Shown: positions 6,301 through 62,612 of the stretch, in pieces | Numbering within the stretch: position 1 is the stretch's first letter | Layout of the letters: each line of letters opens with the position of its first letter | Assembly (NCBI GenBank): GCA_034002925.1 | Contig: JAVEZP010000001.1 | Location: 132,024-196,023 of the forward strand | Length of the DNA stretch: 64,000 bases | Direction: 5' to 3' | From: Patescibacteria group bacterium | Lineage (GTDB): Bacteria; Patescibacteriota; Patescibacteriia; Patescibacteriales; UBA12465 | Notes under the pieces: generated by a model | Databases searched by the model: none | Seen by the model: only the letters and a program-made list of their open reading frames with translations | What the model was told of the DNA's origin: nothing | Position numbers and translations under genes: made by a program

Positions 6301-6317
6301 TTTTCCGAGTTATCTAA
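3303..6317 (+). CDS. pilB: tandem-duplicated PilB/GspE-family secretion ATPase (two complete ATPase modules in one chain)
   Basis: T2SSE_N-like N-terminus (LGLPYVNL...). Two full sets of motifs follow: Walker A GPTGSGKTTTLY (x2), Walker B IIMVGEIRD / IMMIGEIRD, His box TGHLVLSTLH / TGHLVLSTIH, and tetracysteine CPHC...C..C (x2). Confidence 0.9.
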   Translation: MSDLASIENLIDPNNSQDEDSVQGQFAKKQQEIKLKEIEKQTEKKAALLGLPYVNLFSFPISPEALVIIPENTALSLQAVCFFYDGRHIRVACLEPSPEVAEEIERINEQYHADTKLYLVSQNSLNQALEAYKSLPKTKKYDSGVEINEDSLEKFKQDIASYKNLEDKINTVNVSDIVTLILATAIKVGASDIHIEAEEHGVAVRLRIDGVLQEAAVIDKDKWKKVVTRMKILARVKINISNKPQDGRYTIYLKDGKIDVRSSFLPTAYGESVVMRLLNSKAVALEFEKLGIRPEILKKLKREIEKPNGLILTTGPTGSGKTTTLYAVLNKLNQPGSKIVTLEDPIEYQLEGINQSQVETSRGYSFSDGLRSILRQDPNIIMVGEIRDLETAEIAVQASLTGHLVLSTLHTNDAAGVIPRLIDIGVKPYFLVPSINAVIGQRLIRKLCPHCRLEHQLNTEEQEQIQKILAVISPKANIDIPAKIPTVYKVGEGCEHCNYIGYKGRVGIYEIFTMDDNLKQLTIDKAPSFKILQQAIENGMITMLQDGILKCLEGLTSLEEVYRVIGNFDYVNELYDIVISQTIGRGIKISSEEYSKAESLTKNIDKQLNLSDIPSKELISLIMGMAVASDAGDVHIEPTETGVKTRFRIDGVMHDVLDLPKTSYLPILSEVKILAGFATNIKRATLDGRFSIYLAEKKIDCRLSIIAGGYGETIVVRLLSNSAATLELEKLGITSVAKSSLEEAITKTKGIIITTGPTGSGKTTTLYGILNKLNKSDVKIITVEDPIEYQLPGVMQTQIDPERGYTFAAAMRSLLRQNPNIMMIGEIRDTETAKIAIEAAMTGHLVLSTIHANSAAGAISRFAGLGVDKSALANALEFSIGQRLARRICPHCKVIDNPRPDHLQKAEEILKSITNKNIKIPDKLEFYRGAGCDQCKKLGYKGRIGLYETISSTPTIQKMIKSEASTDYDIEVEAIKSGTVTMAQDGILKALAGETSLEEVFRVI

Positions 6318-14178: not shown

Positions 14179-16182
14179 TTAAGGAATTAATTTTTCAAAT
14201 GTCCTAGGAAATGGCACACAGTTATCTATTACTGCAATGTCTAAGAATTTGGCAATTAAACGGTCTAAACCAAGACCAAATCCACCATGCCCCACAGAAT
14301 TGTCAACAATAGAGAGATAAAACGCGTAATCAGCAACATTAATGTTTGCGAGCTTCATTGAATACTCTATTTTTTTACGGTTATTTTCTCTTATTGCGCC
14401 ACTTACCAATTCCCAACCACACAGTATGATATCAAAAGTTTCTGTCAAAAAAGAAGTTCCTTGTTTGGTATAAAACTTTTTGATATTAGAGGGATAATGA
14501 CTAATAACAAAGATATCGCTATCTTTTTTCTTTTTGATAACTTCACCAAGCTTAGCCTCACCGATAACCCCCAAATCAGATCCATATGAGCAGGAAAACC
14601 CATTAGAGTTTAATAAGTCAACCGCCTCCTTGTAAGAAATAATTGGTGGTTTGTTTTTTGGCAAATTAAGCTCAGCTAACGGCAGGGACATTTCTTTCAT
14701 TTGATAATAGCTATCGCAAATAATTGAATAGGCTAAATCGATAATCGTATTCAAATTTTTGGGATTTGATATTTCAACATCTAAGCCAATAGTTTCTTGC
14801 AGATGACGAAAACTATTTTCAGTTTCTGCTCGCCAAAAAGGTCCTATCTCAAATATTTTATCCATTCCTGAAGCAATAACCATTTGTTTATACAGCTGAT
14901 TAGACTGTCTCAAAAAAGCTCTTTCGCCTCTAGGCCAGATTACTTCAATCATGCCACCCTTATCTACTCGTGGCGGATCAGTTGACACACCAACTATGTA
15001 GGGAGTGTTAATTTCGTAGAATCCTTTTTCTAGAAGATTATTTCTTATTGAGTTAAAAACAAAACTTCTTTGTTTAATTATATCAAGCATGTCTGCAGAT
15101 AATCTTGATGAAGCACAAGTTGTTTGGATGTCAGTACTTATTTTTCCCAAAGATATTTTCATTTTATTTAAGAAAGTAATGATATTTTTATTTAATATCT
15201 GGCGCACCTGATTAACAGCACCTGCTCTCTCGTTTCGCGTTTTATGAGCTTCTTTGGAAAAAAATTGTACATCAAAAACTGTCCAAGCTAATTTTTTCTT
15301 CATCGCAGGAGTAGCTAAATCAAAAACGAAGGGCGTTGTCTTGCCAAAATAGTTTTCTAATTTAGCAAAAAGATCCGAGGTTTCACTATTATTATCAAGT
15401 GCCCAAAATATAGCTTGAATATTTTTCAAAACACTCCAATCATTAATTCTAACTATATTGATTTTCGTATTTTTTCTCATAATTTCATCCAATTTCTCTT
15501 GATTGCGATTAGTTACCCAAACCTTGTAATTATATTCTTCTGTTAATATTTTAGCAATAAGAGACCCTGATTGTCCGGCTCCAACAACAAGTATGTTAGA
15601 ATTAGTAGCAACCATTCCAACTAATTGATTAACAGCAATCCTTTCAATAGATGTATTACCTGAGAAGAGGATGGTTTTTTCTTTGACTTCTTCAATTAAC
15701 TCTTGAAGCCACCCAGAAAGAATGGAAAAAAGGGGTTCATTTTTGCTTAATCTAACTTCGGCTTTAATCGCGTTGTTAATTTGAGAAAAAACTTGTGAAT
15801 CTCCAACAGTTACACTGTACAATCCTAAGGCAGCTTCAGCAATAAATCTAATTGCCATTTCATTGTGGAAAAATTTTATTTTGTTAATAAATTCAATAAT
15901 TCCATGATTTGACAACTTGTGCCAAGCGTCTAAAACGCAATGATGCAGATATTCTTCAGAAACATTTTCTGTGTGAGTAAAAATTATCATTACGGCATTA
16001 CATTTTTGGATGATTGTTAATTGCTTTACATTAATCGCAAGTTTACGTTTAAATTTTTCAACCAAATTAATTTGGTTGGGAAAACTAGATGTTTTGAGCA
16101 TTCCTAATGCTTCTTCGTCTAATTTTGTAAAATTAAGCGCAGCACAAATAATTTCAACCGGAAAAGATGTTTTTTGTATCAT
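14179..16182 (-). CDS. fusion protein: N-terminal glutamyl-tRNA reductase (HemA)-like module plus C-terminal class IIb aaRS (Asp/Asn-type) catalytic core without anticodon-binding domain
   Basis: Single 667-aa ORF with SD AGGAGG 7 nt upstream of the ATG. N-terminal half: QKCNAVMI, ALGLYSVTVGDSQVFSQINNAI, ILVVGAGQSGSLIAKIL, VTNRNQEKL, FDLATP, in the same order as E. coli HemA [61 protein letters not shown]. C-terminal half: FYEINTPYIV (motif 1), QSNQLYKQ, FWRAETENSFRHLQE (motif 2), GHGGFGLGLDRL (motif 3). Confidence 0.75.
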   Translation of the reverse strand: MIQKTSFPVEIICAALNFTKLDEEALGMLKTSSFPNQINLVEKFKRKLAINVKQLTIIQKCNAVMIIFTHTENVSEEYLHHCVLDAWHKLSNHGIIEFINKIKFFHNEMAIRFIAEAALGLYSVTVGDSQVFSQINNAIKAEVRLSKNEPLFSILSGWLQELIEEVKEKTILFSGNTSIERIAVNQLVGMVATNSNILVVGAGQSGSLIAKILTEEYNYKVWVTNRNQEKLDEIMRKNTKINIVRINDWSVLKNIQAIFWALDNNSETSDLFAKLENYFGKTTPFVFDLATPAMKKKLAWTVFDVQFFSKEAHKTRNERAGAVNQVRQILNKNIITFLNKMKISLGKISTDIQTTCASSRLSADMLDIIKQRSFVFNSIRNNLLEKGFYEINTPYIVGVSTDPPRVDKGGMIEVIWPRGERAFLRQSNQLYKQMVIASGMDKIFEIGPFWRAETENSFRHLQETIGLDVEISNPKNLNTIIDLAYSIICDSYYQMKEMSLPLAELNLPKNKPPIISYKEAVDLLNSNGFSCSYGSDLGVIGEAKLGEVIKKKKDSDIFVISHYPSNIKKFYTKQGTSFLTETFDIILCGWELVSGAIRENNRKKIEYSMKLANINVADYAFYLSIVDNSVGHGGFGLGLDRLIAKFLDIAVIDNCVPFPRTFEKLIP

Positions 16183-17770: not shown

Positions 17771-17779
17771 CATATTTAG

Positions 17780-17808
17780 ACCTGTTTTTTAAAAAATACA
17801 GGTTTTTT
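17780..17808 (+). terminator. intrinsic terminator after tRNA-Cys
   Basis: ACCTGT ... ACAGGT stem followed by TTTTTT. Confidence 0.7.
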
Positions 17809-17961
17809 ATTTACATAGAAAGCTGTGGATAAGTTGTGCTTTCTGTGTAAAAAATTTAAATTTGAGTCCAGAAAAACCTAGACTTAAAACTAAAAATGGC
17901 TTTATTTTTAAACTAATATTAAACAAAATATTTAATATTAGTCATAAAAAACTCTTAGGTC

Positions 17962-17990
17962 TTGCCTTATCCACAAATCTATGCTATAAT
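17962..17990 (+). promoter_or_regulatory. sigma70-type promoter TTGCCT-N17-TATAAT
   Basis: -35 at 17962-17967, -10 at 17985-17990. The spacer contains a perfect DnaA-box 9-mer, TTATCCACA (17967-17975). Confidence 0.6.
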
Positions 17991-17996
17991 ACTAAT

Positions 17997-18328
17997 AGTT
18001 AGATAAAGTTCTTTTTACTAAATCTTGAAAATGTCATCAGCGCTAGCATGATGAAAGAAGAGTATAAATACTCATAGAGTAAGATAATCACGGTTAATCA
18101 AAAACATTAGAAAATTAATGAGATTAACAAATAGAAATTACAGGAAATCTTACAAGGAATTGGTAAAAAGATAACAAAGCTTAAGCTAGCAAGCTCCAAT
18201 ATTAATCCTGGCTGAAAAAATTGGTAAAAACCAATATAACAGCATGCTAGGATTGGAGCTCAGACGCGGCCTATTATTTATAATTACTTTATTTATATAA
18301 AGAGGGGCCCGTTCTGGGCTCCTTTTTT
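17997..18328 (+). ncRNA. candidate ~330-nt structured RNA or 5' leader upstream of ychF, with terminator/antiterminator architecture
   Basis: No ORF. It is bounded by the promoter above and a long terminator (18255-18271 pairs with 18304-18322, then TTTTTT). A competing 14-bp helix pairs 18193-18212 with 18246-18259. AATTGGTAAAAA is duplicated at 18158 and 18219. Confidence 0.5.
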
Positions 18329-18395
18329 ATTAGACAAGATATTGCTTTTTTATCTAAATTCTGATAAATATTAAACATCAATTAAACTATAATTT

Positions 18396-39299: not shown

Positions 39300-40670
39300 A
39301 TGCGTAACAAAATTATCATTTTAGGTCTTTTGTTTGTTTTTATTCTCAGCACAGGTTTTGGTTGTAAAACTGTTGACAAAGAAACTCAAAAAGCAATGGA
39401 ACCTATTACTCTAACTTATTGGCGTGTCTTTGATGATTCTGATGCTTTTGAAGAAATAATTAATAATTATAAATTAATTCATCCAAATATTACTATCAAC
39501 TACCGCAAACTCCGATATGAAGAATATGAAAATGAACTACTTAATGCCTTAGCTGAGGATCGCGGCCCTGATATTATTTCTATTCATAATACTTGGATTA
39601 GAAGATACCAGAATAAAATTGTGCCAATGCCCACTGCTATTACCTTAGCCTATCCTATAGAAAAAGGTTCTATTAAAAAAGAAATTGTACCAGAACTAAG
39701 AACTAGTCGAACTCCAACCTTAAAAGAATTAAAAGATACTTTTGTAGATGCCGTGTATAGCGATGTTGTCTTGGACGATAATCAAATTTATGCTTTACCA
39801 TTATCTGTGGACACTCTCGCTTTATTTTATAATCGAGATTTACTAAATAATGCTGGTATTACCCAAGCTCCTCAATATTGGAATAAAATCTTTCAACAAG
39901 ATGTAAAGAAATTAACCAGACAAGATCCTTTACAAGGCATTGCTCAATCTGGTATAGCGATGGGGGGCAGCAATAACATTGAACGTTTTAGTGATATTCT
40001 ATCGGTGTTAATGATGCAAAATGGCGCCACTATGATGGAAGGCAAGCAAGTTTTATTTAATATTATTCCAGCAGCTACCAGAAATACAAATTATAATCCC
40101 GGTCTTGAAGCTTTACGTTTCTATATTGATTTCAGTAATCCCGGTAAAGAAGTTTATTCTTGGAACGAAGACTTATCAAATTCCATTACTTTATTTACTA
40201 GTGGCAAACTAGCCATGATGTTTGGCTATTCTTATCATTTACCCATTATTAAAGCTCAAGCACCAAAACTTAATTTCTCTGTTAGTAAACTACCCCAAAT
40301 TGAAGGCAGTCCCGTGGAGGTAAACTTTGCTAACTATTGGGTAGAGGCTGTTTCAAAAAAAAGCAAACATCAAGAAGCAGCTTGGGACTTTATCTTATTC
40401 GCTACCAAAGCAGAACAAGTTAAGTCTTATTTAGATAAAACCAATAAACCAACTGCTTTAAGAGCATTAGTACCTGAGCAAAGAAATGATAATGAAATCG
40501 GCATATTTGCTGATCAAGTTCTAACAGCTAAAAGTTGGTATAAAGGAAAAGACCCAATTGCTGCCGAAACCGCTCTAGCTGAAATGATTGAAGCAGCTAA
40601 AAAAAATCTCGATAAAATCATGGATGCTCTGAATGCTGGAGCATCTAAAGTGCAACAAACTATTAATTAA
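39300..40670 (+). CDS. ABC-type extracellular solute-binding lipoprotein (sugar-binding family 1 like), orphan
   Basis: Lipobox LSTGFGC, with a size and pattern typical of SBP_bac_1. No permease or ATPase genes are adjacent. Confidence 0.7.
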   Translation: MRNKIIILGLLFVFILSTGFGCKTVDKETQKAMEPITLTYWRVFDDSDAFEEIINNYKLIHPNITINYRKLRYEEYENELLNALAEDRGPDIISIHNTWIRRYQNKIVPMPTAITLAYPIEKGSIKKEIVPELRTSRTPTLKELKDTFVDAVYSDVVLDDNQIYALPLSVDTLALFYNRDLLNNAGITQAPQYWNKIFQQDVKKLTRQDPLQGIAQSGIAMGGSNNIERFSDILSVLMMQNGATMMEGKQVLFNIIPAATRNTNYNPGLEALRFYIDFSNPGKEVYSWNEDLSNSITLFTSGKLAMMFGYSYHLPIIKAQAPKLNFSVSKLPQIEGSPVEVNFANYWVEAVSKKSKHQEAAWDFILFATKAEQVKSYLDKTNKPTALRALVPEQRNDNEIGIFADQVLTAKSWYKGKDPIAAETALAEMIEAAKKNLDKIMDALNAGASKVQQTIN

Positions 40671-40674
40671 TTTT

Positions 40675-41097
40675 ATGTTCAAAAAAACTCTGGCAGTTAT
40701 ATTAATCACCATCTTTTCTCTGATTTTTGCTAACTTAAGTCTGGCACAAGACTCTATTATAGATCCTAGTAGTGATAGTAATTATGCCACTGGCGACTAT
40801 GAGGTCAACGACATTTTAAATATTGCTATTGGTGTTACAAAAATCATTTTAGGAGTAGTAGGGTCAATTACTTTATTAATGTTTGTTTATGGCGGCTTAA
40901 TGTTTTTAATTTCAGCCGGCAGTAGTGAAAAAGTAGCTAAAGCAAAAAGTATTTTAGTAGCTGCGGTTATTGGCTTATTAATAGTTTTTACTAGTTATCT
41001 AATTATACGATTTGTTTTAAGCGCTCTAGGTAGAGACGATTTTCAAGGTAATTTTATTAATATCACAAAAACACATCAATTAAGCTTAATCAGTTAA
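40675..41097 (+). CDS. VirB2/TrbC-like (T4SS-pilin-like) small two-TM secreted protein, paralog 0
   Basis: Signal peptide ...LSLAQD, then TM1-GGLMFLISAGSSEKVAKAKS-TM2. The architecture matches the 42810-45361 array. The start at 40675 is 4 nt after the SBP stop. Confidence 0.65.
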   Translation: MFKKTLAVILITIFSLIFANLSLAQDSIIDPSSDSNYATGDYEVNDILNIAIGVTKIILGVVGSITLLMFVYGGLMFLISAGSSEKVAKAKSILVAAVIGLLIVFTSYLIIRFVLSALGRDDFQGNFINITKTHQLSLIS

Positions 41098-41102
41098 AGT
41101 CC

Positions 41103-41768
41103 ATGCAAGAATTTTCTTTTCCCAAAGAACAAGAGGCTCCTGGTAAAATTTTAAGAGAGAGCCGTCAAGAAAAAAAAATAAGCTTGGAAGAGGCAGCCGC
41201 GCATCTTCGTATTAAAAAAGAGTATCTTCTTGCTTTGGAAAATGACGATTACAATCAATTACCTTCTGGTTTATATGGTAAACAATTTCTACAAAAATAT
41301 TGTAAACTCCTTAAATTAAATTACAATAAAATATTAGCTCAAACACCTCTTAAAGATTCTCTTTTTCAAAATGATCCCTTTTCTAAAAAAGTACTGAGAT
41401 CAAGAAATTTTCTAGTTTTTCCTAAATTAATCAGAAATATTGTATTATTAATAATTTTTTTAATTTTCTTTTTCTATTTACTATTTTATTTTAAACGCCT
41501 GTCTGCTCCGCCTAAACTAATTGTTAATCAACCAGAAAAAAATTTAGTTACTAGCGCCTATGTCATTGATGTTACCGGAATAAGTGATCCCGAAACTGAA
41601 ATTACCATTAATGGTAGCTTAGTTATGAGTGATCAAAATGGTAATTTTAGCCAAGAAATACAGTTAAAAAGCGGGCTTAATAACATTAATATCGTAGCCA
41701 AGAAAAAACATGGACGAGAAAATTTCGTTCAAAGACAAATCTTGGTAGAAAACCAATATGAACAATAA
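41103..41768 (+). CDS. RodZ-like HTH membrane protein
   Basis: N-terminal HTH GKILRESRQEKKISLEEAAAHLRIKKEYLLALENDDYNQLP (RodZ/HTH_25 pattern), one TM helix, and an extracytoplasmic beta-rich domain. Confidence 0.65.
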   Translation: MQEFSFPKEQEAPGKILRESRQEKKISLEEAAAHLRIKKEYLLALENDDYNQLPSGLYGKQFLQKYCKLLKLNYNKILAQTPLKDSLFQNDPFSKKVLRSRNFLVFPKLIRNIVLLIIFLIFFFYLLFYFKRLSAPPKLIVNQPEKNLVTSAYVIDVTGISDPETEITINGSLVMSDQNGNFSQEIQLKSGLNNINIVAKKKHGRENFVQRQILVENQYEQ

Positions 41769-42306
41769 TCAAGGCTCACTATTTGACATAAATTTTATTT
41801 TGAATAAAATAGCAATATCAGCTGGAGAACAAATTGCTGAATTGGGTTGTGGTGCTTTTGGTTACTTTGTCTTTCCAGCAGCTAAAATGATTGGAGATAG
41901 AGGTAAACTATTTGCTGTAGATATTCTAAAAAGCACTTTAGAGGATATTAAGAAAAGAGCTTTACAAGAAAATCTAAAACAAATAGAAACTGTGTGGAGT
42001 AATTTAGAAATATTTAAAGGCACTAAAATAGAAAGCTCCAGTTTAGACAAAGTATTGCTAATCAATATCTTGCATCAATCAGACAAAAGAGCCGATATTT
42101 TACGAGAAGCTACAAGAATCATGAAAACAAAAGCAAAAATGTTAATTATTGAATGGAAGCACATAGATAGTCCTCTTGGACCACCACTAAATAAAAAAGT
42201 GCAAAAAAGCGCATTAAAAGAAGCGGCTCCTAAATTAGGCTTAAGCCTAGAAGATGAATTTGAAGCCGGCCCTTATCATTACGGACTTATTTTTCATAAA
42301 TCATAA
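41758..42306 (+). CDS. class I SAM-dependent methyltransferase
   Basis: Motif I IAELGCGAFGY and motif II-like LFAVDI. Confidence 0.65.
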   Translation: MNNNQGSLFDINFILNKIAISAGEQIAELGCGAFGYFVFPAAKMIGDRGKLFAVDILKSTLEDIKKRALQENLKQIETVWSNLEIFKGTKIESSSLDKVLLINILHQSDKRADILREATRIMKTKAKMLIIEWKHIDSPLGPPLNKKVQKSALKEAAPKLGLSLEDEFEAGPYHYGLIFHKS

Positions 42307-42311
42307 ATAAT

Positions 42312-42695
42312 ATGCAAAACCTACTTACTTGGAAATTTTGGTTCAACCTGAGACCAGAGTTATTACTGCCAACTTTTCAAAAGATTTATCTAGCTATTTT
42401 ATTAATTTTACTAATACTAGCTATTTTTTCTTATTTCAAACAAACAAAGAAGAGTCTTTATAAAAGATTTTGGAAACAATCTTATGTTTTTAGTTTCAGT
42501 AATTTGGTAATTGGAGCAATTTTTTTCTTCTTTAATTATGAAAGAGCCGCCTTTCTGTCTGCTCGTTTCTGGCTTGCCCTATGGGGAATAAGCATGTTAA
42601 TTTGGTTAGTCTATTTAATAAAAATATATCGACAAGTACCACTGAATAAAAAACGCTTAGAAGAAGAACAAGAATATAAAAAATATATCCCTTAA
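42312..42695 (+). CDS. small membrane protein, unknown function
   Basis: Three predicted TM helices. ORF only. Confidence 0.5.
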   Translation: MQNLLTWKFWFNLRPELLLPTFQKIYLAILLILLILAIFSYFKQTKKSLYKRFWKQSYVFSFSNLVIGAIFFFFNYERAAFLSARFWLALWGISMLIWLVYLIKIYRQVPLNKKRLEEEQEYKKYIP

Positions 42696-42697
42696 AA

Positions 42698-42726
42698 TAA
42701 AATCCTCCATTAGGAGGATTTTTTTC
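42698..42726 (+). terminator. intrinsic terminator
   Basis: AAAATCCTCC-ATTA-GGAGGATTTTTTT. Confidence 0.85.
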
Positions 42727-42737
42727 TTATTTTAATA

Positions 42738-42766
42738 TTGTCTTTACCCCATTATTATGCTAAAAT
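42738..42766 (+). promoter_or_regulatory. candidate promoter TTGTCT-N17-TAAAAT for the pilin-like array
   Basis: The spacing is canonical. A strong SD, AAAGGTGGTGA, lies 4 nt before the ATG at 42810. Confidence 0.5.
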
Positions 42767-42809
42767 AAAATCATCATTTAATTAATCAAAACTAGAAAGG
42801 TGGTGAATT

Positions 42810-43184
42810 ATGAATAAAGTTATTAAACATGTTTTAGTGTTTGCTATGTTAGCTTTTTTGGCTATGCCTGCTCTAGTATTCGCACAAGGCGAGTTAGATT
42901 TAGGTTTACAACCAATTGAAGATAATATTGCTTTATCTGATCGTGATCCTAGAGAAACCGTTGCTCAACTTATTAACGTGGCCATGTTATTCCTTGGTAT
43001 TATTGCTGTTGGCATCGTCTTATTAGGAGGTTTCAAATGGATGACTGCTGGTGGTAATGAAGATAAAGTAGGTGAAGCTAAAAAATTAATGGGAGCAGGT
43101 GTGATTGGTTTAGTTATTGTCTTGTCAGCTTGGGGTATCGCAACCTTCATCCTCAACCAATTAGTGACCGCTACTGGTGCCTAA
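42810..43184 (+). CDS. VirB2/TrbC-like pilin-like protein, paralog 1 (likely major subunit)
   Basis: Signal peptide ...LVFAQG, a variable segment, then TM1-GGFKWMTAGGNEDKVGEAKK-TM2. Confidence 0.7.
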   Translation: MNKVIKHVLVFAMLAFLAMPALVFAQGELDLGLQPIEDNIALSDRDPRETVAQLINVAMLFLGIIAVGIVLLGGFKWMTAGGNEDKVGEAKKLMGAGVIGLVIVLSAWGIATFILNQLVTATGA

Positions 43185-43290
43185 TTATTTCTAGAATCGA
43201 TTTTGGAAAAAACGGTCCTTGTTTAAGCAGGGACCGTCGCTCTGTAAATCAGTTTACTGGTTTCTAGAGCGACGAAAATAATATTATTAT

Positions 43291-43686
43291 ATGCTTTTTT
43301 TCAAATTTAAAAAATTATTAGCTCTCATTGTGTTTGTATTTATTGGCAGCGTTATTTCTCTAGCCAACGTCCAAGCTCAAGAGGGAAATTATGGCTTAGA
43401 TGCCAGCGCTAGTAAAGTTTCCGCCTTTAGCGAACAAATGGGTAATAATTATAATACAAATTTTTTAAATACGAGGATTGGTTCAATTATAGGTATCGCC
43501 CTTTCTTTTATTGGGGTGATATTTTTAATATTAATGATTTATGCTGGTATTTCTTGGATGACAGCTTCAGGTAACCAAGAAAAAGTGACTAAGGCTAAAG
43601 ACCTGATTATCAACGCCATTATTGGTTTAATTATTGTTTTAGCTGCTTATGCTATTACCTCCTTTATTGGTAATCGTTTAATGTAA
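43291..43686 (+). CDS. VirB2/TrbC-like pilin-like protein, paralog 2
   Basis: Signal peptide ...NVQAQE; core AGISWMTASGNQEKVTKAKD flanked by two TM helices. Confidence 0.7.
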   Translation: MLFFKFKKLLALIVFVFIGSVISLANVQAQEGNYGLDASASKVSAFSEQMGNNYNTNFLNTRIGSIIGIALSFIGVIFLILMIYAGISWMTASGNQEKVTKAKDLIINAIIGLIIVLAAYAITSFIGNRLM

Positions 43687-43687
43687 T

Positions 43688-44134
43688 ATGAAACTAATAA
43701 AGTTTTTCTTCACTATTATTTTTTTCTCTCTTGTTTTTCAAATAAATACAAGCCCTGTTTTAGCTGATGAGCCCAACCAGGGATCATACAACTTCAAAGA
43801 ACAAAGTGGTTTATCAGCGGCAGCCACAGGAGCAGGATATGAAATAAATGACGAAAAAACAATTGAATCCTATATTGGACAAATTATCAATATTGTCTTA
43901 TCTGTCTTAGGGGTGGTCTTTTTAATTCTGATTATTTACGGTGGTATTTTATGGATGACGGCTGCTGGTAACGAAGAAAAAGTTAAAAAAGCGAAAGAAT
44001 TAATTACTGAAGCTTTAATTGGTTTAGTAATTGTATTAGCTGCCTATGCTATTAGTTATTTTGTCCTCAATCAATTGGTAAATGCTAGTTTAACCTCCAA
44101 TACGGCCCCCAAAAGCTTTGACCCCAATCCTTAA
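43688..44134 (+). CDS. VirB2/TrbC-like pilin-like protein, paralog 3
   Basis: Core GGILWMTAAGNEEKVKKAKE flanked by two TM helices. Starts 1 nt after the previous stop. Confidence 0.7.
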   Translation: MKLIKFFFTIIFFSLVFQINTSPVLADEPNQGSYNFKEQSGLSAAATGAGYEINDEKTIESYIGQIINIVLSVLGVVFLILIIYGGILWMTAAGNEEKVKKAKELITEALIGLVIVLAAYAISYFVLNQLVNASLTSNTAPKSFDPNP

Positions 44135-44149
44135 TTCAAGAATGATATT

Positions 44150-44518
44150 ATGAAAATAAAAATTGTCTTATTAAATATTTTTCTTTTTCTATTTCTAGTA
44201 AATATTGCTTCCGCCCAAGGACTAAAAGAAGCTTTTAATAATGCAAGGGGCACGGCTCATCAAGCGTCATACGCTACTTATGGTACAGACGACTTACTTA
44301 TCAGTTCAATTAATAATGTAATTAACATTGTCTTATCTTTGTTAGGTGTTATCTTTGTCATTTTAACAGTTTACGGCGGCTTTCTTTATATGACTGCACG
44401 TGGCAATGAAGAACAAACAAAAAAAGCTTTATCAATTATTACTCAGTCTTTAATTGGATTAATAATCGTCTTATCAGCTTACGCTATTAGTTATTTTGTC
44501 TTTAAATTTTTCATTTAA
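44150..44518 (+). CDS. VirB2/TrbC-like pilin-like protein, paralog 4
   Basis: Core GGFLYMTARGNEEQTKKALS flanked by two TM helices. Confidence 0.7.
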   Translation: MKIKIVLLNIFLFLFLVNIASAQGLKEAFNNARGTAHQASYATYGTDDLLISSINNVINIVLSLLGVIFVILTVYGGFLYMTARGNEEQTKKALSIITQSLIGLIIVLSAYAISYFVFKFFI

Positions 44519-44524
44519 TTTTAT

Positions 44525-44929
44525 ATGACTCTAAAAGGCTTAAAACAAACTCTCTTATTATTAGCCATGATTGCTATCATGATTGCCCCTTATTTCGTAT
44601 TTGCTCAAGGAACCTTAAATGAAACAGCCAGTTCTAATCCAATCTCCATGCTAGAAAAAGTAGCCGGTGATTCTTTTGCTGAAACAGACGAAAATTCTTT
44701 ATCCGCTATCATTGGTATGGTGGTGGGTGCCGCCTTAAGTCTTTTAGGTGTTATTTTTGTAGTATTAATGGTTTTAGCTGGTTATAATTGGATGACAGCC
44801 TCTGGCAATGAGCAAAAAGTAGACGAAGCTAAGAGCACACTTAAAAGAGCAATTATTGGTTTAGTAATTGTTTTAGGCGCTTGGAGTATATGGCGATTTA
44901 TATTAGAAAATTTAATTGACCGTTTATAA
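44525..44929 (+). CDS. VirB2/TrbC-like pilin-like protein, paralog 5
   Basis: Core AGYNWMTASGNEQKVDEAKS flanked by two TM helices. Confidence 0.7.
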   Translation: MTLKGLKQTLLLLAMIAIMIAPYFVFAQGTLNETASSNPISMLEKVAGDSFAETDENSLSAIIGMVVGAALSLLGVIFVVLMVLAGYNWMTASGNEQKVDEAKSTLKRAIIGLVIVLGAWSIWRFILENLIDRL

Positions 44930-44932
44930 TAT

Positions 44933-45361
44933 ATGAAAAATTATCTAAAAAAAAGCAGCTTTATTATTTTAGCCGCCATCTTACTAAGCTTTCCATCTTT
45001 TGCCCTAGCTCAAACAAGCACTAGCCCCGGCCTATCTGATCGAGTCAACGCTCAAGCAGAAAATATGCAAAACACTGCTGGTTTAGGTGATGTTAGTTTA
45101 GGAGTTGTTATTTCAATGGTGATAAGAGCTGCTCTTACTTTACTTGGCATTATCTTTCTGGTTATTATTGTCTTTGCTGGCTACCGTTGGATGACTGCAT
45201 CTGGCAATGAAGAAGCTATTCAAAAAGCGCAATCTTCTATTAAGCGCGCCATTATTGGTTTAGTAATTGTAATGCTTGCTTATGCCATTACTGCTTTTGT
45301 CTTTAATCAATTACCCTTTGGAGCTGTAGGTGGTAGTTCTGGAGCGATGACAAGTGGTTAA
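44933..45361 (+). CDS. VirB2/TrbC-like pilin-like protein, paralog 6
   Basis: Core AGYRWMTASGNEEAIQKAQS flanked by two TM helices, with a Gly/Ser-rich C-terminal tail. Confidence 0.7.
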   Translation: MKNYLKKSSFIILAAILLSFPSFALAQTSTSPGLSDRVNAQAENMQNTAGLGDVSLGVVISMVIRAALTLLGIIFLVIIVFAGYRWMTASGNEEAIQKAQSSIKRAIIGLVIVMLAYAITAFVFNQLPFGAVGGSSGAMTSG

Positions 45362-55806: not shown

Positions 55807-55876
55807 AAATTTAATTTATGTTTTTATTATACAATAAAAAGAAAGGTACTAAAAGAGCTAGAATAGATAATCTTAT

Positions 55877-55894
55877 TTTTTTGTTTAATATTAG
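55877..55894. repeat. left 18-bp terminal inverted repeat TTTTTTGTTTAATATTAG
   Basis: Perfect reverse complement of 56569-56586. A third copy with 1 mismatch (CTAATATTAAATAAAAAA) lies at 55914-55931. Confidence 0.7.
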
Positions 55895-55944
55895 CTAATT
55901 ATTAATTTTTTAACTAATATTAAATAAAAAATTATAAGACCAAT

Positions 55945-56535
55945 TGTTCCACGTAGAACATTATAAAAAACTGAAATTATTTATTTTTTTTATAATATTA
56001 ACATTGTTCTTTGTAGAACAATTTTAAAAAGATAACTGTTCTGCACAGAACATTAATATTTTTTATTTTCTTTTAAGATTTTATGTTCTTCACAGAACAT
56101 TCATGTATTACATTTTTTAAAAACAAAGTAGTTCTTATTTTTAAAATGCTTATAAGCTTAATTATAGACTTTTTAATGTTCTACACAGAACATTCTGAAA
56201 TATTTTAATTTATTAATAAAAAATTTTTATAGCATGTTAAAGGTATTATTATTTGTTCTACGTAGAACATTTTTTTATAAAACAAATAAAATTCAAGATA
56301 GTGTCTGGTAAACATAAAACAATTCAGATCTATCTCTAAATACTTCCAAAAATAAATCTTTATAAAAAATTTATTTCTAAAAAAGAAAAATTTAAAACAC
56401 AAATTTTTTCTGTTATAAAATAAAAAATTGTTCTACACAGAACAATTTTATATATTTATTTTAGCTTATGTTCTATGTAGAACAAAAATATTTATATTAA
56501 ATAAATTAATATTTTTTAATGTTCTGCGCAGAACA
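55945..56535. repeat. array of nine 16-bp palindromes TGTTCT-N4-AGAACA in AT-rich non-coding DNA
   Basis: Copies at 55945-55960 (TGTTCCACGTAGAACA), 56005-56020, 56037-56052, 56084-56099, 56177-56192, 56254-56269 (TGTTCTACGTAGAACA), 56429-56444, 56469-56484 and 56520-56535. The arms are invariant apart from one T>C. The centre is N-Y-R-N. Spacing is irregular (32-175 bp). Confidence 0.85.
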
Positions 56536-56568
56536 TTAATAATAAATATTTTTTATCAATAAATTAAG

Positions 56569-56586
56569 CTAATATTAAACAAAAAA
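56569..56586. repeat. right 18-bp terminal inverted repeat CTAATATTAAACAAAAAA
   Basis: Perfect reverse complement of 55877-55894. It abuts the tRNA-Ala terminator hairpin (56581-56603). Confidence 0.7.
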
Positions 56587-56607
56587 CCGGAAAACCGGTT
56601 TTATTAG

Positions 56608-56681
56608 TGGACCATAAGGGACTTGAACCCTTGACCTCTTCCATGCCATGGAAGCGCTCTAGCCAACTGAGCTAATGGCCC
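56608..56681 (-). tRNA. tRNA-Ala(GGC)
   Basis: Manual cloverleaf: GGGCCAT acceptor, anticodon loop ATGGCAT, T-arm AAGGG-TTCAAGT-CCCTT. Confidence 0.9.
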
Positions 56682-56729
56682 TATATTTTATATTATTATA
56701 TCCAAGAGAAAATAAAAGTCAACTATTAG

Positions 56730-56801
56730 TGCTCTCGCCAGGAATCGAACCTGGATCTAGAACTTAGGAGGTTCTTGTTTTATCCATTAAACTACGAAAG
56801 C
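56730..56801 (-). tRNA. tRNA-Arg(CCU)
   Basis: Manual cloverleaf: GCTTTCG acceptor, anticodon loop CTCCTAA, T-arm CCAGG-TTCGATT-CCTGG. Confidence 0.85.
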
Positions 56802-56978: not shown

Positions 56979-57377
56979 ATGTTTAGCAAAGAAAACAAAA
57001 TTGAAAAATTTAAAGACGCAGAAACTATTATTGGCCCATCAATAAAAGTAAAAGGTAATTTTAATGGTAAGGGAGATATTGTAATTGAAGGAATTTTAGA
57101 AGGATCCTTAAAAACTGATGCTAATGTTTTTATTGGTGAAAAAGCGCGTGTTAACGCTAACATAGAGGCTAGCGAAGCTTTTATTAGCGGAGAAATAAGT
57201 GGTAATATTAAAATTAAAAAATACTTAGCTATCGGAAAAAGCGCTAAAATAACAGGCGATGTCCAATGTGGAGAAATATCTATAGAAAGAGGAGCTTTAA
57301 TCGGTGGTCAAATTATTGTAGCCTTTGAAAACAATAAAAAAAATGATGATAAAAAAACAGCTGAAGTTGAAGTTTAA
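56979..57377 (+). CDS. bactofilin-family cytoskeletal protein
   Basis: Repetitive beta-helix pattern IGPSIKVKGNFNGKGDIVIEGILEGSL...ISGEISGNIKI...ITGDV, typical of DUF583/bactofilin. Confidence 0.8.
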   Translation: MFSKENKIEKFKDAETIIGPSIKVKGNFNGKGDIVIEGILEGSLKTDANVFIGEKARVNANIEASEAFISGEISGNIKIKKYLAIGKSAKITGDVQCGEISIERGALIGGQIIVAFENNKKNDDKKTAEVEV

Positions 57378-57391
57378 GCCCAAAAGATTTT

Positions 57392-58132
57392 ATGAATGTC
57401 TATATTTATGACGATTTTTTAAATAAATCTCGCTATAGACGCGCCTTAGCAAAAGTTGAAATAAGACTAACAGATCTCGGTCTTAATGGCAAAATTATCC
57501 GCCTAGGAGCTATTAAAAATGTTCGCGAGGTAATTCAATCTGAAATTAAAAATGGCGCTAAAAATATTATTGCTGTTGGCAACAACGAAACTGTTAATAA
57601 AGTTGTGAGCGCGATAATGAGCAGTAAAAGTTACGATCTCTTTAAAAAAGAGTTATTGTTTTCTATTATTCCTATTGGAGATAATAATTCAATTGCAGAG
57701 TCTTTAGGAATAAAGAAAAGTGAAGATGCTTGTAATATTATTTTAGCTCGTCGTGTAGAAAATATTAACATTGCATGGGCGGGAAAAAATATTTTTATTA
57801 ATAAATTAGAACTTGTTAATAATGGCTTGAAAATAGAGATTGACAAAAAATACGAAATAGAATTAATAAATAAAAAAAACAGTGCTCAAATTATTAATAT
57901 CGCTGATAAAAAAAGCTTAAACTTTTTTGAAAAAATAAGCCCTCAAGACAATCTATTAAATATCATGATAGATAAAGGAAAAGATGAAACTTTTATAGCT
58001 AGTAAAAATATTAAAATTAAAGGCCTTGGCGAGGTAATTCTTGATTCTTGTTTATTAGAAAAAACCCCAATTGACATAGGTTTGCTTCAGGAAAATTTAA
58101 ACATTATTGTAGGAAAAGAAAGAAGCTTCTAA
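57392..58132 (+). CDS. diacylglycerol-kinase-fold (YegS/LCB5-like) protein with a degenerate catalytic loop
   Basis: IIAVGNNETVNKVVSAI aligns with the DAGK_cat IVVvGGDGTvnEVvNgL. IIPIGDNNSIAESLGI aligns with iiPlGTgNDfAraLGi. GGDGT is replaced by GNNET. Confidence 0.45.
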   Translation: MNVYIYDDFLNKSRYRRALAKVEIRLTDLGLNGKIIRLGAIKNVREVIQSEIKNGAKNIIAVGNNETVNKVVSAIMSSKSYDLFKKELLFSIIPIGDNNSIAESLGIKKSEDACNIILARRVENINIAWAGKNIFINKLELVNNGLKIEIDKKYEIELINKKNSAQIINIADKKSLNFFEKISPQDNLLNIMIDKGKDETFIASKNIKIKGLGEVILDSCLLEKTPIDIGLLQENLNIIVGKERSF

Positions 58133-61230: not shown

Positions 61231-61490
61231 CTGTTTATAAACTCTTAAAAACCTTAACTATTTCTGTTTATTTCTCTTGTATAAATAAACATCTAACTGT
61301 TTAAAACTAAAGATTGTTCACAAGTAAAAAAAGTATCAACAGTTAAGCAAATAAATAATAACAAGAAATTAATAAGTATATACACAAGAAAATAAAGCTA
61401 ATAATAAGAGAAAAAAGTCCAAAAAAACAATTGTGCACACCCCTTATTATTACTATTATTTAATATATATAAATATAACTATATAATAAT
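61231..61490. other. candidate oriC (dnaA-dnaN spacer)
   Basis: Three same-orientation DnaA-box-like 9-mers, each with 1 mismatch to the relaxed consensus TTATNCACA: TTGTTCACA (61314-61322), ATATACACA (61378-61386), TTGTGCACA (61431-61439). A nearly pure A/T stretch follows at 61445-61490. Confidence 0.5.
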
Positions 61491-62612
61491 ATGAAGTTGG
61501 TTTGTCTTCAGAATAATTTAAAAAAAGGTTTAGCTATAGTAAGCCATATAAACAATAAGAATATTAATTTACCAATTCTTAATAACATACTAATTAGAGC
61601 TAATGAGGCTGGAGTTGAATTAATTAGTACTAATTTAGAAATGGGAATAACTCATCAATTAAGAGGTAAGGTTGAAGATTTTGGTGAAATAACCATTGAT
61701 TCTAAATTGTTTAGTGATTATGTTAATTTGTTGCCAGAAGATAAAGTTGAGTTTTTAAGTGAAAAGTTAGATATTAATATTAAATGTGGAAACTATAAAA
61801 CAAAAATGAAAGGAGAAGACGCTAAAGAATTTCCTTTAATACCAATTATAGATAAAAATGATTGTTGTAGTTTAAATATTTTTGATTTTAAAAAAGCTGT
61901 TTCTTCTGTGGTTTTTTCGGTTGCTAGTTCTGATAATAGAATGGAACTTTCTGGTGTGTATTTTAAATTTAATGATAAAAAATTAATTTTAGCAGCTACT
62001 GATAGTTATCGTTTAGCAGAAAAAAGTGTTGATTTAAAAGATAGTAGTATTAAGGATAAAGATATAATTGTTCCCGCTAAAACAGTTAATGAAGTTTTAA
62101 GAATTATTTCTAGTGTTACTTCTGATGTTAAAAATTTAGATTCAGATCTGATAAATATTTGTATTTCTGATAATCAGATTTTGTTTTCATTTTCTTCAGT
62201 TGAGTTAATTTCTAGAACTATTAATGGTCAATATCCTGATTATAAACAAATAATTCCAGATAAATATAAAACAGAGGCTGAAATTTCAAAAGAAGACTTT
62301 TTAAGAGCGGTAAAAGCATCATCTGTTTTTTCAAAAAATGGGGTATATGATGTTTCTTTGGTTTTTCATAAAAAAAACTTAAATATATATTCTTCATCTA
62401 ATCAGAGTGGGGAGAGCTCAATTGATATTCCTTGTGATTTTTCAGGAGATGATAATGATATTGCTATTAATTATCGATATGTTTTAGATGCTTTAAATGT
62501 TATTGAAGGAGAAACTGTTTCTTTGAAGGTTATAAACAACAACACTCCTTGTCAGATATCGTCTCCAAATGATGAATCTTATTTATATATTATTATGCCT
62601 ATTAGAAATTAA
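61491..62612 (+). CDS. dnaN: DNA polymerase III beta sliding clamp
   Basis: Three-domain 373-aa protein. LAATDSYRLA motif and the position after dnaA. Confidence 0.9.
   Translation: MKLVCLQNNLKKGLAIVSHINNKNINLPILNNILIRANEAGVELISTNLEMGITHQLRGKVEDFGEITIDSKLFSDYVNLLPEDKVEFLSEKLDINIKCGNYKTKMKGEDAKEFPLIPIIDKNDCCSLNIFDFKKAVSSVVFSVASSDNRMELSGVYFKFNDKKLILAATDSYRLAEKSVDLKDSSIKDKDIIVPAKTVNEVLRIISSVTSDVKNLDSDLINICISDNQILFSFSSVELISRTINGQYPDYKQIIPDKYKTEAEISKEDFLRAVKASSVFSKNGVYDVSLVFHKKNLNIYSSSNQSGESSIDIPCDFSGDDNDIAINYRYVLDALNVIEGETVSLKVINNNTPCQISSPNDESYLYIIMPIRN

What the first reader, a model, noticed from the sequence alone, without database searches (positions are those of the whole stretch)
55945..56535. 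Nine-copy array of a parS-like palindrome TGTTCT-N4-AGAACA in a 0.7-kb non-coding island near the origin
Seen in sequence:
- Nine 16-bp palindromes with essentially invariant 6-bp arms and a variable N-Y-R-N centre.
- Spacing is irregular (32-175 bp).
- They lie in a roughly 80+% AT region with no credible ORF, between a glycosyltransferase promoter and two tRNA genes, about 3.3 kb from the dnaA start.
- Copy 1 (TGTTCCACGTAGAACA) shares its first 10 nt with the B. subtilis spo0J parS (TGTTCCACGTGAAACA). The perfect copy TGTTCTACGTAGAACA differs from the symmetric parS TGTTTCACGTGAAACA only by a TC>CT swap in each half-site.

Established knowledge:
- Chromosomal parS sites are origin-proximal but usually dispersed and often intragenic.
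- Dense arrays of short inverted repeats are typical of plasmid centromeres (for example sopC, parC) or of iteron/operator arrays.

Inference:
- This may be a clustered centromere-like or SMC-loading site for a ParB variant with altered specificity (smc is in this window).
- Alternatively it is a high-occupancy sink or operator array for an unknown dimeric HTH protein.

The motif is not the Gram-positive LexA box (GAAC-N4-GTTC), whose half-site polarity is the opposite.
Basis: partly seen in the sequence, partly recalled or inferred. Interest (0 to 1): 0.8.

Follow-up and report, generated by a model that had tools for sequence, protein, structure and literature searches.

The report
Diverged parS centromere array near origin
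Nine copies of a slightly altered bacterial chromosome "centromere" sequence (parS) sit in one gene-free stretch 3.3 kb from the replication-initiator gene of an uncultured Patescibacteria genome. Relatives keep the same array, so it is most likely the loading site for the partition protein ParB, but no ParB gene was found in the roughly 95 kb that could be read.

Summary
There are nine exact TGTTCY-N4-RGAACA sites at 55945-56535, none elsewhere in the window, and none expected by chance.

The motif is a derivative of parS. It differs from the Pseudomonas-type parS TGTTCCACGTGGAACA by one transition per half-site (C6>T, G11>A), and its centre is relaxed to N-Y-R-N.

Evidence for a parS-type site:
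- A pair-pattern scan of 185,579 genomes returned 120+ loci. In 86 of the 120 the main site is the canonical parS, and 52 carry a parB gene within 8 kb.
- The exact variant TGTTCTACGTAGAACA lies within a few kb of parB genes in other phyla.
- The extended flank preference (A at -2, A/T at -1) is shared with canonical parS.
- At least 15 Falkowbacteria-like relatives keep arrays of 2-12 sites. The arms are conserved, while centres and spacers drift.
- The arrays sit at gene 3' ends, not at promoters, which argues against an operator.

Caveats:
- No ParB gene was found from -24 to +71 kb around the window.
- Four relatives have no sites within 10 kb of dnaA.
- The array's constant neighbour is a bactofilin/lipid-kinase-like gene pair, not dnaA.

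Verdict: a new sequence variant of a known kind of element (a clustered chromosomal centromere). The cognate protein is unverified. Interest is moderate.

The parts
55807..56606 (.). Non-coding A+T-rich island that holds the array. It lies between the start of the DUF6938 gene and the tRNA-Ala terminator.
   Evidence: 82.4% A+T. Only short low-complexity ORFs. No Rfam family. No DnaA-box-like TTATWAACA.
55945..55960 (.). Site 1, TGTTCCACGTAGAACA. A hybrid: the left half is the canonical parS half-site TGTTCCAC.
   Evidence: It is 1 mismatch from TGTTNCACGTGNAACA.
56005..56020 (.). Site 2, TGTTCTTTGTAGAACA.
56037..56052 (.). Site 3, TGTTCTGCACAGAACA.
   Evidence: The centre differs in L174 while the arms are kept. 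One strain (L124) has A>G at the last base.
56084..56099 (.). Site 4, TGTTCTTCACAGAACA.
   Evidence: Lost in relative L174, where the left arm is TGCCCT.
56177..56192 (.). Site 5, TGTTCTACACAGAACA.
   Evidence: Changes are confined to the centre in L174 and in L205.
56254..56269 (.). Site 6, TGTTCTACGTAGAACA. A perfect palindrome, and the form that dominates in relatives and in other phyla.
   Evidence: It is 2 mismatches from the canonical parS.
56429..56444 (.). Site 7, TGTTCTACACAGAACA.
   Evidence: Identical in L174.
56469..56484 (.). Site 8, TGTTCTATGTAGAACA.
   Evidence: Only the centre differs in L174.
56520..56535 (.). Site 9, TGTTCTGCGCAGAACA.
   Evidence: Only the centre differs in L174 and L205.
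56583..56602 (-). Boundary feature. An intrinsic-terminator-like hairpin directly after tRNA-Ala, which separates the tRNA transcript from the array.
   Evidence: 8-pair stem with 4 G-C pairs, followed by a T run.
56607..56801 (-). Context. tRNA-Ala(ggc) and tRNA-Arg(cct), neighbours of the array in most relatives.
56979..58132 (+). Context. The bactofilin gene (56979-57377) and the DAGK/lipid-kinase-like gene (57392-58132). This pair is the most constant neighbour of the array across relatives.
   Evidence: Pfam. NCBIfam. Synteny.

Best explanation
The array is a cluster of diverged parS sites, that is, a chromosomal centromere in a Falkowbacteria-like Patescibacteria genome.

Proposed mechanism (inferred by analogy with ParABS, not shown here):
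- A dimeric ParB-family protein encoded elsewhere in the genome binds each 16-bp palindrome. Each helix-turn-helix reads the invariant outer bases (A-W-)TGTTCT plus a purine-pyrimidine step.
- The central 4 bp are only loosely read.
- Nine closely spaced nucleation sites load ParB clamps that spread over the origin-proximal region. The resulting partition complex is used for segregation and probably for loading SMC, which is encoded in the window.

Evolution (inferred): the sequence descends from the TGTTCCACGTGGAACA type of parS by a symmetric C6>T/G11>A change. The requirement for the central ACGT was later relaxed in this sub-lineage.
For: 1. Sequence.
- Site 1 is 1 mismatch and site 6 is 2 mismatches from the canonical parS.
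- TGTTCCACGTGGAACA is the experimentally studied Pseudomonas parS (PMC4368675 and PMC5450999).

2. The same pattern elsewhere marks parS.
- The pair pattern found 120+ loci in many phyla.
- In 86 of the 120 the main site is TGTTCCACGTGGAACA.
- 52 of the 120 have a ParB ORF in the same 8 kb or less.

3. The exact variant TGTTCTACGTAGAACA forms arrays in the same few-kb loci as ParB ORFs in unrelated lineages.
- In the Firmicutes locus L165 the ParB ORF starts directly after the sites.
- In L189 the sites lie about 60 nt from the ParB ORF.
- In the Acidobacteria-like loci L145 and L171 the ParB ORF is 1-5 kb from the array.

4. Flank signature. A at -2 and A/T at -1 is seen in this clade (63/84 A at -2). 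It is also seen at canonical parS (111/170 and 171/312) and in the high-GC variant (50/74).

5. Conservation.
- Arrays of 2-12 sites occur in at least 15 syntenic relatives whose DnaA is about 60-100% identical where dnaA is visible.
- Spacers cannot be aligned at about 80% DnaA identity, yet the sites persist.
- Window versus L174: arms show 2 real differences in 84 positions, both in one site that L174 has lost. Centres show 9/28, spacers 49/473, and spacer G/C positions 19/63.
- The 28 G/C positions in the arms show 0 changes.

6. Position.
- Sites lie downstream of tRNA-Ala, beyond its terminator.
- In other relatives they lie between the convergent 3' ends of yidC and the DAGK-like gene, and once inside a CDS. 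These are not promoter positions.

7. Origin proximity.
- The array is 3.3 kb from dnaA.
- The cumulative GC-skew minimum of the window falls at about 56 kb.
- DnaA-box-like TTATWAACA sites cluster just upstream of dnaA in six genomes and are absent from the islands.

8. No canonical parS (2 mismatches or fewer) exists elsewhere in the window or in the reachable flanks.

9. Centre variants.
- Position 7 is never C, the base that defines the Noc site (PMC7383237).
- CG>TG/CA centre variants also occur in canonical arrays (25/328).
Against: - No ParB-family ORF in the window. A ParB HMM run with filters off gave a best E-value of 0.5, and Pfam scans of all larger ORFs found none.
- No ParB Pfam domain from about -24 to +71 kb in near-identical assemblies. 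There is also none within 10 kb of dnaA in five relatives.
- Whether the genome encodes ParB is unknown.
- A well-studied canonical ParB (B. cenocepacia ParBc1) loses binding with symmetric changes at positions 6-11 and at every other pair except 1-16 and 5-12 (PMC5450999). An adapted or more tolerant ParB would therefore be needed.
- A third of the centres in this sub-lineage lack the central CG.
- Four relatives have no site within 10 kb of dnaA. Linkage to the origin is therefore not universal, or the array has moved with the bactofilin block.
- No binding data exist.
Confidence: 0.6

Rival explanations
1. The sites are bound by a dimeric DNA-binding protein that is not ParB. It would be a lineage-specific origin-region organiser or anchor, analogous to RacA/ram sites, possibly working with the bactofilin encoded next to the array. 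The resemblance to parS would then be ancestral or convergent.
For: - No ParB gene in about 95 kb around the array.
- The centre is unconstrained, unlike classical parS.
- The array's constant neighbour in 16 of 17 loci is the bactofilin/DAGK-like pair, on either side of it. It is not dnaA.
- Bactofilin scaffolds position centromere complexes in Myxococcus (PMC5703909).
Against: - The motif, including its flanks, matches parS arrays that lie within a few kb of parB genes elsewhere.
- Other Patescibacteria carry dense canonical parS arrays (L019, L022), so ParB/parS is used in the superphylum.
- No candidate alternative binder is conserved next to the array.
Confidence: 0.2
2. The array is an operator or sink for a transcription factor that regulates the flanking genes: the DUF6938/EamA/GT2 operon, the tRNA genes, or bactofilin.
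For: - The island contains the promoter region of the DUF6938 operon, and promoter-like hexamers are present.
- A single site lies 5-6 nt upstream of tRNA-Ala in L139, L157 and L207.
Against: - Promoter-like matches are no more frequent than in shuffles (9 found versus 11.2 expected).
- In L150, L162 and L147 the sites lie between the 3' ends of convergent genes, and one lies inside a CDS.
- Copy number varies from 2 to 12.
- The flanking gene on the far side changes between relatives (DUF6938, a Pyr_redox gene, PPDK, yidC).
- The motif occurs nowhere else in 64 kb.
Confidence: 0.07
3. The island is part of the replication origin, and the palindromes are bound by an initiator or an origin regulator.
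For: - The island is A+T-rich.
- It lies at the window's cumulative GC-skew minimum.
- It is 3.3 kb from dnaA.
Against: - There are no DnaA-box-like sequences in the island in six genomes. They cluster next to dnaA instead.
- A conserved A+T-rich element lies at the end of the dnaA-dnaN spacer.
- In some relatives the sites occupy an intergenic stretch of only about 200 nt.
- Four relatives have no sites near dnaA.
Confidence: 0.05
4. The palindromes act as RNA hairpins, for example terminators or processing signals downstream of the tRNA operon or between convergent genes.
For: - In L150 and L162 the sites are embedded in long A-tract/T-tract palindromes between convergent genes.
- The hairpins fold better than shuffled sequences.
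Against: - The stems are weak, -3.5 to -8 kcal/mol with 2 G-C pairs.
- A proper terminator already precedes the array.
- The arms are invariant in sequence rather than covarying.
- The same flank bias is a property of canonical parS.
- Nine to eleven tandem terminators make no sense.
- L173 sites have no T runs.
Confidence: 0.03
5. The array is a relic centromere of a plasmid or other element that integrated next to tRNA-Ala.
For: - tRNA 3' ends are common integration sites (established knowledge).
- Dense palindrome arrays resemble plasmid centromeres.
Against: - There are no integrase, rep or par genes nearby.
- The array is kept, with selection on the arms, across relatives whose DnaA is down to about 60% identical.
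Confidence: 0.03

Closest known systems
Chromosomal parS of the ParABS system, Pseudomonas-type variant TGTTCCACGTGGAACA
   Same: - A 16-bp palindrome with the same outer bases, TGTTC...GAACA.
- The same A(-2)/W(-1) flank preference.
- Origin-proximal clustering.
- Site 1 is 15/16 identical and site 6 is 14/16 identical.
   Different: - Positions 6/11 are T/A instead of C/G in 81 of 84 half-sites.
- The central ACGT is relaxed to N-Y-R-N.
- Nine sites are packed in 0.6 kb of non-coding DNA, rather than a few sites spread over kilobases and often inside genes.
- No parAB nearby.
Bsr family of parS/ParB specificities on Burkholderia chromosomes and plasmids (PMC5450999)
   Same: - Related 16-bp palindromes, mostly with a central CG, that have diverged at inner positions together with their ParBs.
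- Several copies are clustered in non-coding DNA.
   Different: - Those clusters lie next to their own parAB operon and serve to keep replicons apart.
- Here there is a single small chromosome with no adjacent par genes.
Myxococcus xanthus parS cluster with the BacNOP/PadC bactofilin scaffold (PMC5703909; bioRxiv 10.1101/2020.06.17.156356)
   Same: - A cluster of many parS sites near the origin.
- A functional link between the centromere complex and bactofilins. Here a bactofilin gene is the array's constant neighbour.
   Different: - In Myxococcus the link is shown by cell biology, and parAB and padC are present.
- Here the link is only gene adjacency, and no ParB or PadC was seen.
Plasmid centromere arrays (F sopC, R1 parC)
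   Same: Many copies of a short inverted repeat in a compact non-coding stretch.
   Different: - Plasmid arrays are regular tandem repeats next to the par operon.
- Here the spacing is irregular (32-175 nt), the spacers are unrelated, and there is no par operon.
Verrucomicrobia LexA box TGTTC-N4-GAACA (PMC4951493)
   Same: Identical 5-bp arms.
   Different: - 14 bp versus 16 bp: the spacer is N4 versus N6.
- LexA boxes sit in the promoters of lexA, recA and imuA.
- Here the sites are not at promoters, and no SOS genes are adjacent.

Membership tests
Chromosomal parS (ParABS centromere) | A 16-bp palindrome matching TGTTNCACGTGNAACA with at most 1-2 mismatches. | tested here: inconclusive
   - Two of nine sites qualify: site 1 with 1 mismatch and site 6 with 2.
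- The other seven differ further, but only in the central 4 bp.
Chromosomal parS (ParABS centromere) | Located in the origin-proximal part of the chromosome. | tested here: met
   - The array is 3.3 kb from dnaA.
- The GC-skew minimum falls at about 56 kb.
- The same holds in seven distinct genomes.
- Caveat: four relatives lack sites within 10 kb of dnaA.
Chromosomal parS (ParABS centromere) | A cognate ParB (PF02195 + HTH_ParB) encoded in the genome. | not testable with these tools
   - None in the window.
- None from -24 to +71 kb.
- The rest of the 318-kb contig and of the MAG could not be fetched.
Chromosomal parS (ParABS centromere) | Specific binding by ParB, followed by CTP-dependent spreading. 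| not testable with these tools
   This needs an experiment.
Chromosomal parS (ParABS centromere) | The same sequence type is found associated with parB genes in other genomes. | tested here: met
   - TGTTCTACGTAGAACA arrays share a few-kb locus with ParB ORFs in L145, L171, L165 and L189.
- 52 of 120 TGTTCY..RGAACA pair loci carry ParB.
Chromosomal parS (ParABS centromere) | Purifying selection on the protein-contacted bases, independent of the neighbouring genes. | tested here: met
   - Arms are conserved while centres and spacers drift.
- The position shifts between the tRNA side and the yidC side of the bactofilin pair.
Plasmid-type centromere repeat array (sopC/parC-like) | Regular tandem repeat units adjacent to a parAB or parMR operon. 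| tested here: not met
   - Spacing is irregular, 32-175 nt.
- Spacers cannot be aligned between relatives.
- No par genes are nearby.
LexA/SOS operator | The lineage's LexA box geometry, placed in the promoters of lexA/recA-type genes. | tested here: not met
   - The arms are spaced N6, versus N4 in the Verrucomicrobia box.
- The half-site polarity is opposite to GAAC-N4-GTTC.
- The sites lie at gene 3' ends.
Intrinsic terminator | A G+C-rich stem followed by a T run at a gene's 3' end. | tested here: not met
   - The scan finds only the tRNA-Ala terminator.
- The site hairpins have 2 G-C pairs and fold at -3.5 to -8 kcal/mol.
oriC DnaA-box cluster | Several DnaA boxes plus an unwinding element. 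| tested here: not met
   - There are no TTATCCACA-like boxes (1 mismatch or fewer) and no TTATWAACA boxes in the island.
- Such boxes lie next to dnaA instead.

The most novel reading that the evidence does not exclude
This Falkowbacteria-like lineage has no canonical ParB. The palindrome array is instead the cis-acting part of a different chromosome-anchoring module. An unidentified dimeric protein would tether the array to a bactofilin polymer encoded by the gene pair that always accompanies it, in effect a bactofilin-based centromere system in ultra-small bacteria. A milder form is also possible: ParB exists, but the centromere and the bactofilin gene are kept together because the two interact directly.
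Probability: 0.15. Interest if true: 0.8.

Novelty: new variant of a known kind. Interest (0 to 1): 0.5.

Why it matters
- Almost nothing is known about how Candidate Phyla Radiation bacteria organise and segregate their chromosomes. The paper library holds no paper that combines Patescibacteria with parS and ParB, and none that contains the sequence TGTTCTACGTAGAACA.
- A conserved, compact and easily recognised centromere-like array gives a concrete handle. It marks the origin region in fragmented MAGs and predicts a ParB with shifted, relaxed specificity.
- That prediction can be tested in vitro without cultivating the organism.
- The same C6>T/G11>A variant also occurs in Acidobacteria-like and Firmicutes genomes, within a few kb of parB genes. 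It therefore offers natural material for studying how ParB-parS specificity drifts at positions that model ParBs do not tolerate.
- The constant pairing with a bactofilin gene is a lead for a segregation role of bactofilins outside Myxococcus.

Tried and rejected
Searching for ParB:
- I built a ParB HMM from 41 ParB ORFs lying next to canonical parS and ran it with all filters off on every window ORF of 50 aa or more. There were no hits.
- I ran Pfam on about 60 window ORFs. None is ParA or ParB.
- A homologue search with the ParB of L165 returned only Clostridia proteins.
- Walking outwards by exact-protein look-ups reached -24 kb and +71 kb and found none.
- The source contig itself (318,427 nt) is never returned.
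- A walk that relied on a self-hit failed, because the homologue search returns cluster representatives.

Hypotheses considered and rejected:
- LexA box: rejected on geometry and position.
- DnaA boxes/oriC in the island: rejected.
- tRNA-linked RNA element or terminator: rejected.
- Small protein gene in the island: rejected. The 75-codon frame is less conserved than the DNA.
- Mobile repeat (REP/MITE/uptake sequence): rejected. There is no copy outside the array in about 95 kb, nor elsewhere in relatives' loci.

Analysis that led nowhere:
- I looked for a ParB recognition-helix change that correlates with the T-variant. None is evident. One Acidobacteria ParB class with nearly the same helix occurs in loci whose arrays have different inner bases.

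Full report
**Observation.** The pattern TGTTCYNNNNRGAACA occurs exactly nine times in the window, all between 55945 and 56535. No shuffle of the window produced a single match. Allowing two mismatches adds only one hit, inside dnaN.
- The sites lie in an 800-nt island (55807-56606) that is 82.4% A+T.
- The island has no credible ORF and no Rfam family.
- To the left is a DUF6938 gene, which heads an operon with EamA, a hypothetical gene and a GT2 glycosyltransferase.
- To the right are tRNA-Ala(ggc) and tRNA-Arg(cct), then bactofilin, a DAGK/lipid-kinase-like gene, yidC, yidD, rnpA, rpmH, dnaA and dnaN.

- By my own rough estimate, about two pairs would be expected by chance.
- In 86 of the 120 loci the main site is TGTTCCACGTGGAACA, which accounts for 241 of 328 sites.
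- That sequence is the parS of Pseudomonas (PMC4368675 and PMC5450999).
- A ParB HMM finds a ParB ORF inside the same 8 kb or less in 52 of the 120 loci. The pattern therefore picks out parS clusters.
- The window's perfect copy, TGTTCTACGTAGAACA, differs from that parS by one transition per half-site.
- Copy 1 (TGTTCCACGTAGAACA) is a hybrid with one canonical half-site.

**The variant elsewhere.** A metagenome scan restricted to the T/A variant gave 68 loci.
- High-GC, Acidobacteria-like contigs carry arrays of TGTTCTACGTAGAACA. Two of them hold a ParB ORF 1-5 kb from the array (L145, L171).
- A Firmicutes contig (L165) has two such sites plus one canonical site directly upstream of its ParB ORF. 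In L189 the sites lie about 60 nt from a ParB ORF.
- The variant therefore accompanies parB genes in other lineages.
- The bases flanking the 16-mer also agree. In this clade, position -2 is A in 63 of 84 half-sites and position -1 is A or T.
- Canonical parS shows the same bias in low-GC genomes (111/170) and in high-GC genomes (171/312). So does the high-GC T-variant (50/74).
- Canonical arrays also contain CG>TG/CA centre variants (25 of 328).

**Conservation.** The source is a MAG labelled "Patescibacteria group bacterium" (contig 318,427 nt). Its DnaA is 72-78% identical to proteins named Candidatus Falkowbacteria.
- At least fifteen related contigs carry arrays of 2-12 sites in the same gene neighbourhood.
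- The window and L174 are about 90% identical across the island. There, the arms of the seven comparable sites show two real differences, both in site 4, which L174 has thereby lost.
- In the same comparison the centres differ at 9 of 28 positions, spacers at 49 of 473, and spacer G/C positions at 19 of 63.
- The 28 G/C positions in the arms show no change. At the neutral rate for G/C of about 30%, that has a probability of about 5e-5 (my calculation).
- A near-identical strain (L205) differs in two centres and in no arm.
- At about 80% DnaA identity the spacers no longer align, but the sites remain.
- The arms are therefore under selection, while the central four bases evolve about neutrally apart from keeping pyrimidine-purine in the middle.
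- More distant relatives (L150, L162, L167, L173) have a uniform ACGT centre. This suggests the relaxed centre is derived.

**Position argues against an operator.**
- In the window, a proper terminator hairpin follows tRNA-Ala before the array begins.
- In L150, L162 and L147 the sites lie between the 3' ends of the convergent yidC and DAGK-like genes, and one lies inside the coding sequence.
- Promoter-like matches in the island are no more frequent than in shuffles.
- As RNA the sites would be weak hairpins of -3.5 to -8 kcal/mol. Their arms are invariant rather than covarying.

**Relation to the origin.**
- The cumulative GC skew of the window reaches its minimum at about 56 kb.
- The island lacks DnaA boxes.
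- The variant box TTATWAACA is over-represented in the window (14 found versus 5.9 expected).
- That box lies just upstream of dnaA in six genomes and never in the islands.
- The array is therefore origin-proximal but is not the DnaA-box region.

**What weakens the parS reading.**
- No ParB or ParA gene is present in the window.
- None is present in the 24 kb to its left or the 7 kb to its right in near-identical assemblies.
- None is present within 10 kb of dnaA in five relatives.
- The rest of the genome could not be reached.
- A model canonical ParB does not tolerate symmetric changes at positions 6/11 or in the centre, so a co-adapted protein is required.
- Four relatives with 71-75% identical DnaA have the order VanW | yidC-yidD-rnpA-rpmH | dnaA-dnaN and no site, variant or canonical, within 10 kb of dnaA.
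- In those genomes the bactofilin/DAGK-like/tRNA block lies elsewhere. Across all loci this block, not dnaA, is the array's constant companion.
- The array lies on one side of the pair in some relatives and on the other side in others.

**Verdict.** The most likely explanation (about 0.6) is a clustered, diverged parS centromere for a ParB encoded elsewhere.
- It would act in segregation and probably in SMC loading.
- Binding, spreading and the identity of the protein are inferred, not shown.
- The main rival (about 0.2) is a non-ParB protein that organises or anchors this region, perhaps through the neighbouring bactofilin. Bactofilin scaffolds do position centromere complexes in Myxococcus (PMC5703909).
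- Operator, origin element, RNA hairpin and relic-plasmid readings are each unlikely.
- This is a new sequence variant and an unusually dense arrangement of a known kind of element, in a group whose chromosome biology is unexplored. Interest is moderate.

Noticed in passing
L019:6414-7911 and L022:7008-7813 (genome contigs DQBY01000015.1, JBAYWF010000010.1): In two other Patescibacteria (Moraniibacteriota and Parcubacteria), 10-11 canonical parS sites are packed into 0.8-1.5 kb inside a long ORF with a Wzy_C (O-antigen-ligase-like) Pfam hit. In L022 this ORF lies next to gyrA. Dense parS arrays, here intragenic, may be a general trait of the superphylum.
   Followed up: partly
Window 56979-58132 and the relatives: The bactofilin gene and the overlapping-adjacent DAGK/lipid-kinase-like gene accompany the array in 16 of 17 loci. 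The array lies on either side of the pair. Where this pair is not next to yidC (L208-L211), there are no sites near dnaA.
   Followed up: partly
L015, L101, L011, L034, L145, L171 (Acidobacteriota loci): One ParB class with the helix VG[VI]SRESV[SA]NYMRLL occurs in loci whose arrays share the arms TGTTCY/RGAACA but differ in the inner bases (ACGT, ACGG, AATC, TGCA, and the T-variant). This is natural variation of parS positions 6-11 with no obvious change in the recognition helix.
   Followed up: partly
Window 61231-61490 and the dnaA-dnaN spacers of L157, L167, L162, L185: A conserved element, CACCCCTTATTATTACTATTATT followed by an AT-only stretch, ends the dnaA-dnaN spacer in all relatives. 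TTATWAACA-type boxes flank dnaA. This is the probable origin/unwinding region.
   Followed up: partly
Window 17772-18395: A 624-nt stretch between tRNA-Cys and ychF has no ORF. It holds the only closely spaced pair of perfect DnaA boxes in the window (17824 on the minus strand, 17967 on the plus strand) and two terminator-like hairpins. There is no Rfam match even at a permissive threshold. It may be an undescribed RNA gene.
   Followed up: partly
Window 62069-62084 (inside dnaN); same codon position in L157, L205, L207: A parS-like 16-mer, TGTTCCCGCTAAAACA, sits at the same position of dnaN in relatives. It is probably a consequence of conserved coding sequence, not a site.
   Followed up: no
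Window 40633-45361: Seven tandem paralogous genes of small proteins have a T4SS_pilin Pfam domain. One of the seven lies on the far side of two unrelated genes. They sit downstream of SMC and a solute-binding protein gene.
   Followed up: no
Window 14179-16182 (-) and 3303-6317 (+): Two unusual fusions. A 667-aa protein combines GlutR_N and Shikimate_DH domains with a class II (Asp/Lys/Asn-type) tRNA synthetase core. A 1004-aa protein carries two T2SSE (PilB-like) ATPase modules.
   Followed up: no
L143, L134, L152, L176, L187, L133/L156 (metagenome contigs): Other TGTTCT-N4-AGAACA arrays have different, uniform centres and regular periods of 21-75 nt, for example 12 copies of TGTTCTAACAAGAACA in L143. 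They are unrelated to this clade and look like iteron or centromere repeats of unknown elements.
   Followed up: no
L124, L125, L126, L121-L123, L174: Short-read assemblies of this species repeatedly break in or next to the array island and around dnaA/dnaN. The region is therefore often missing or split in MAGs.
   Followed up: no
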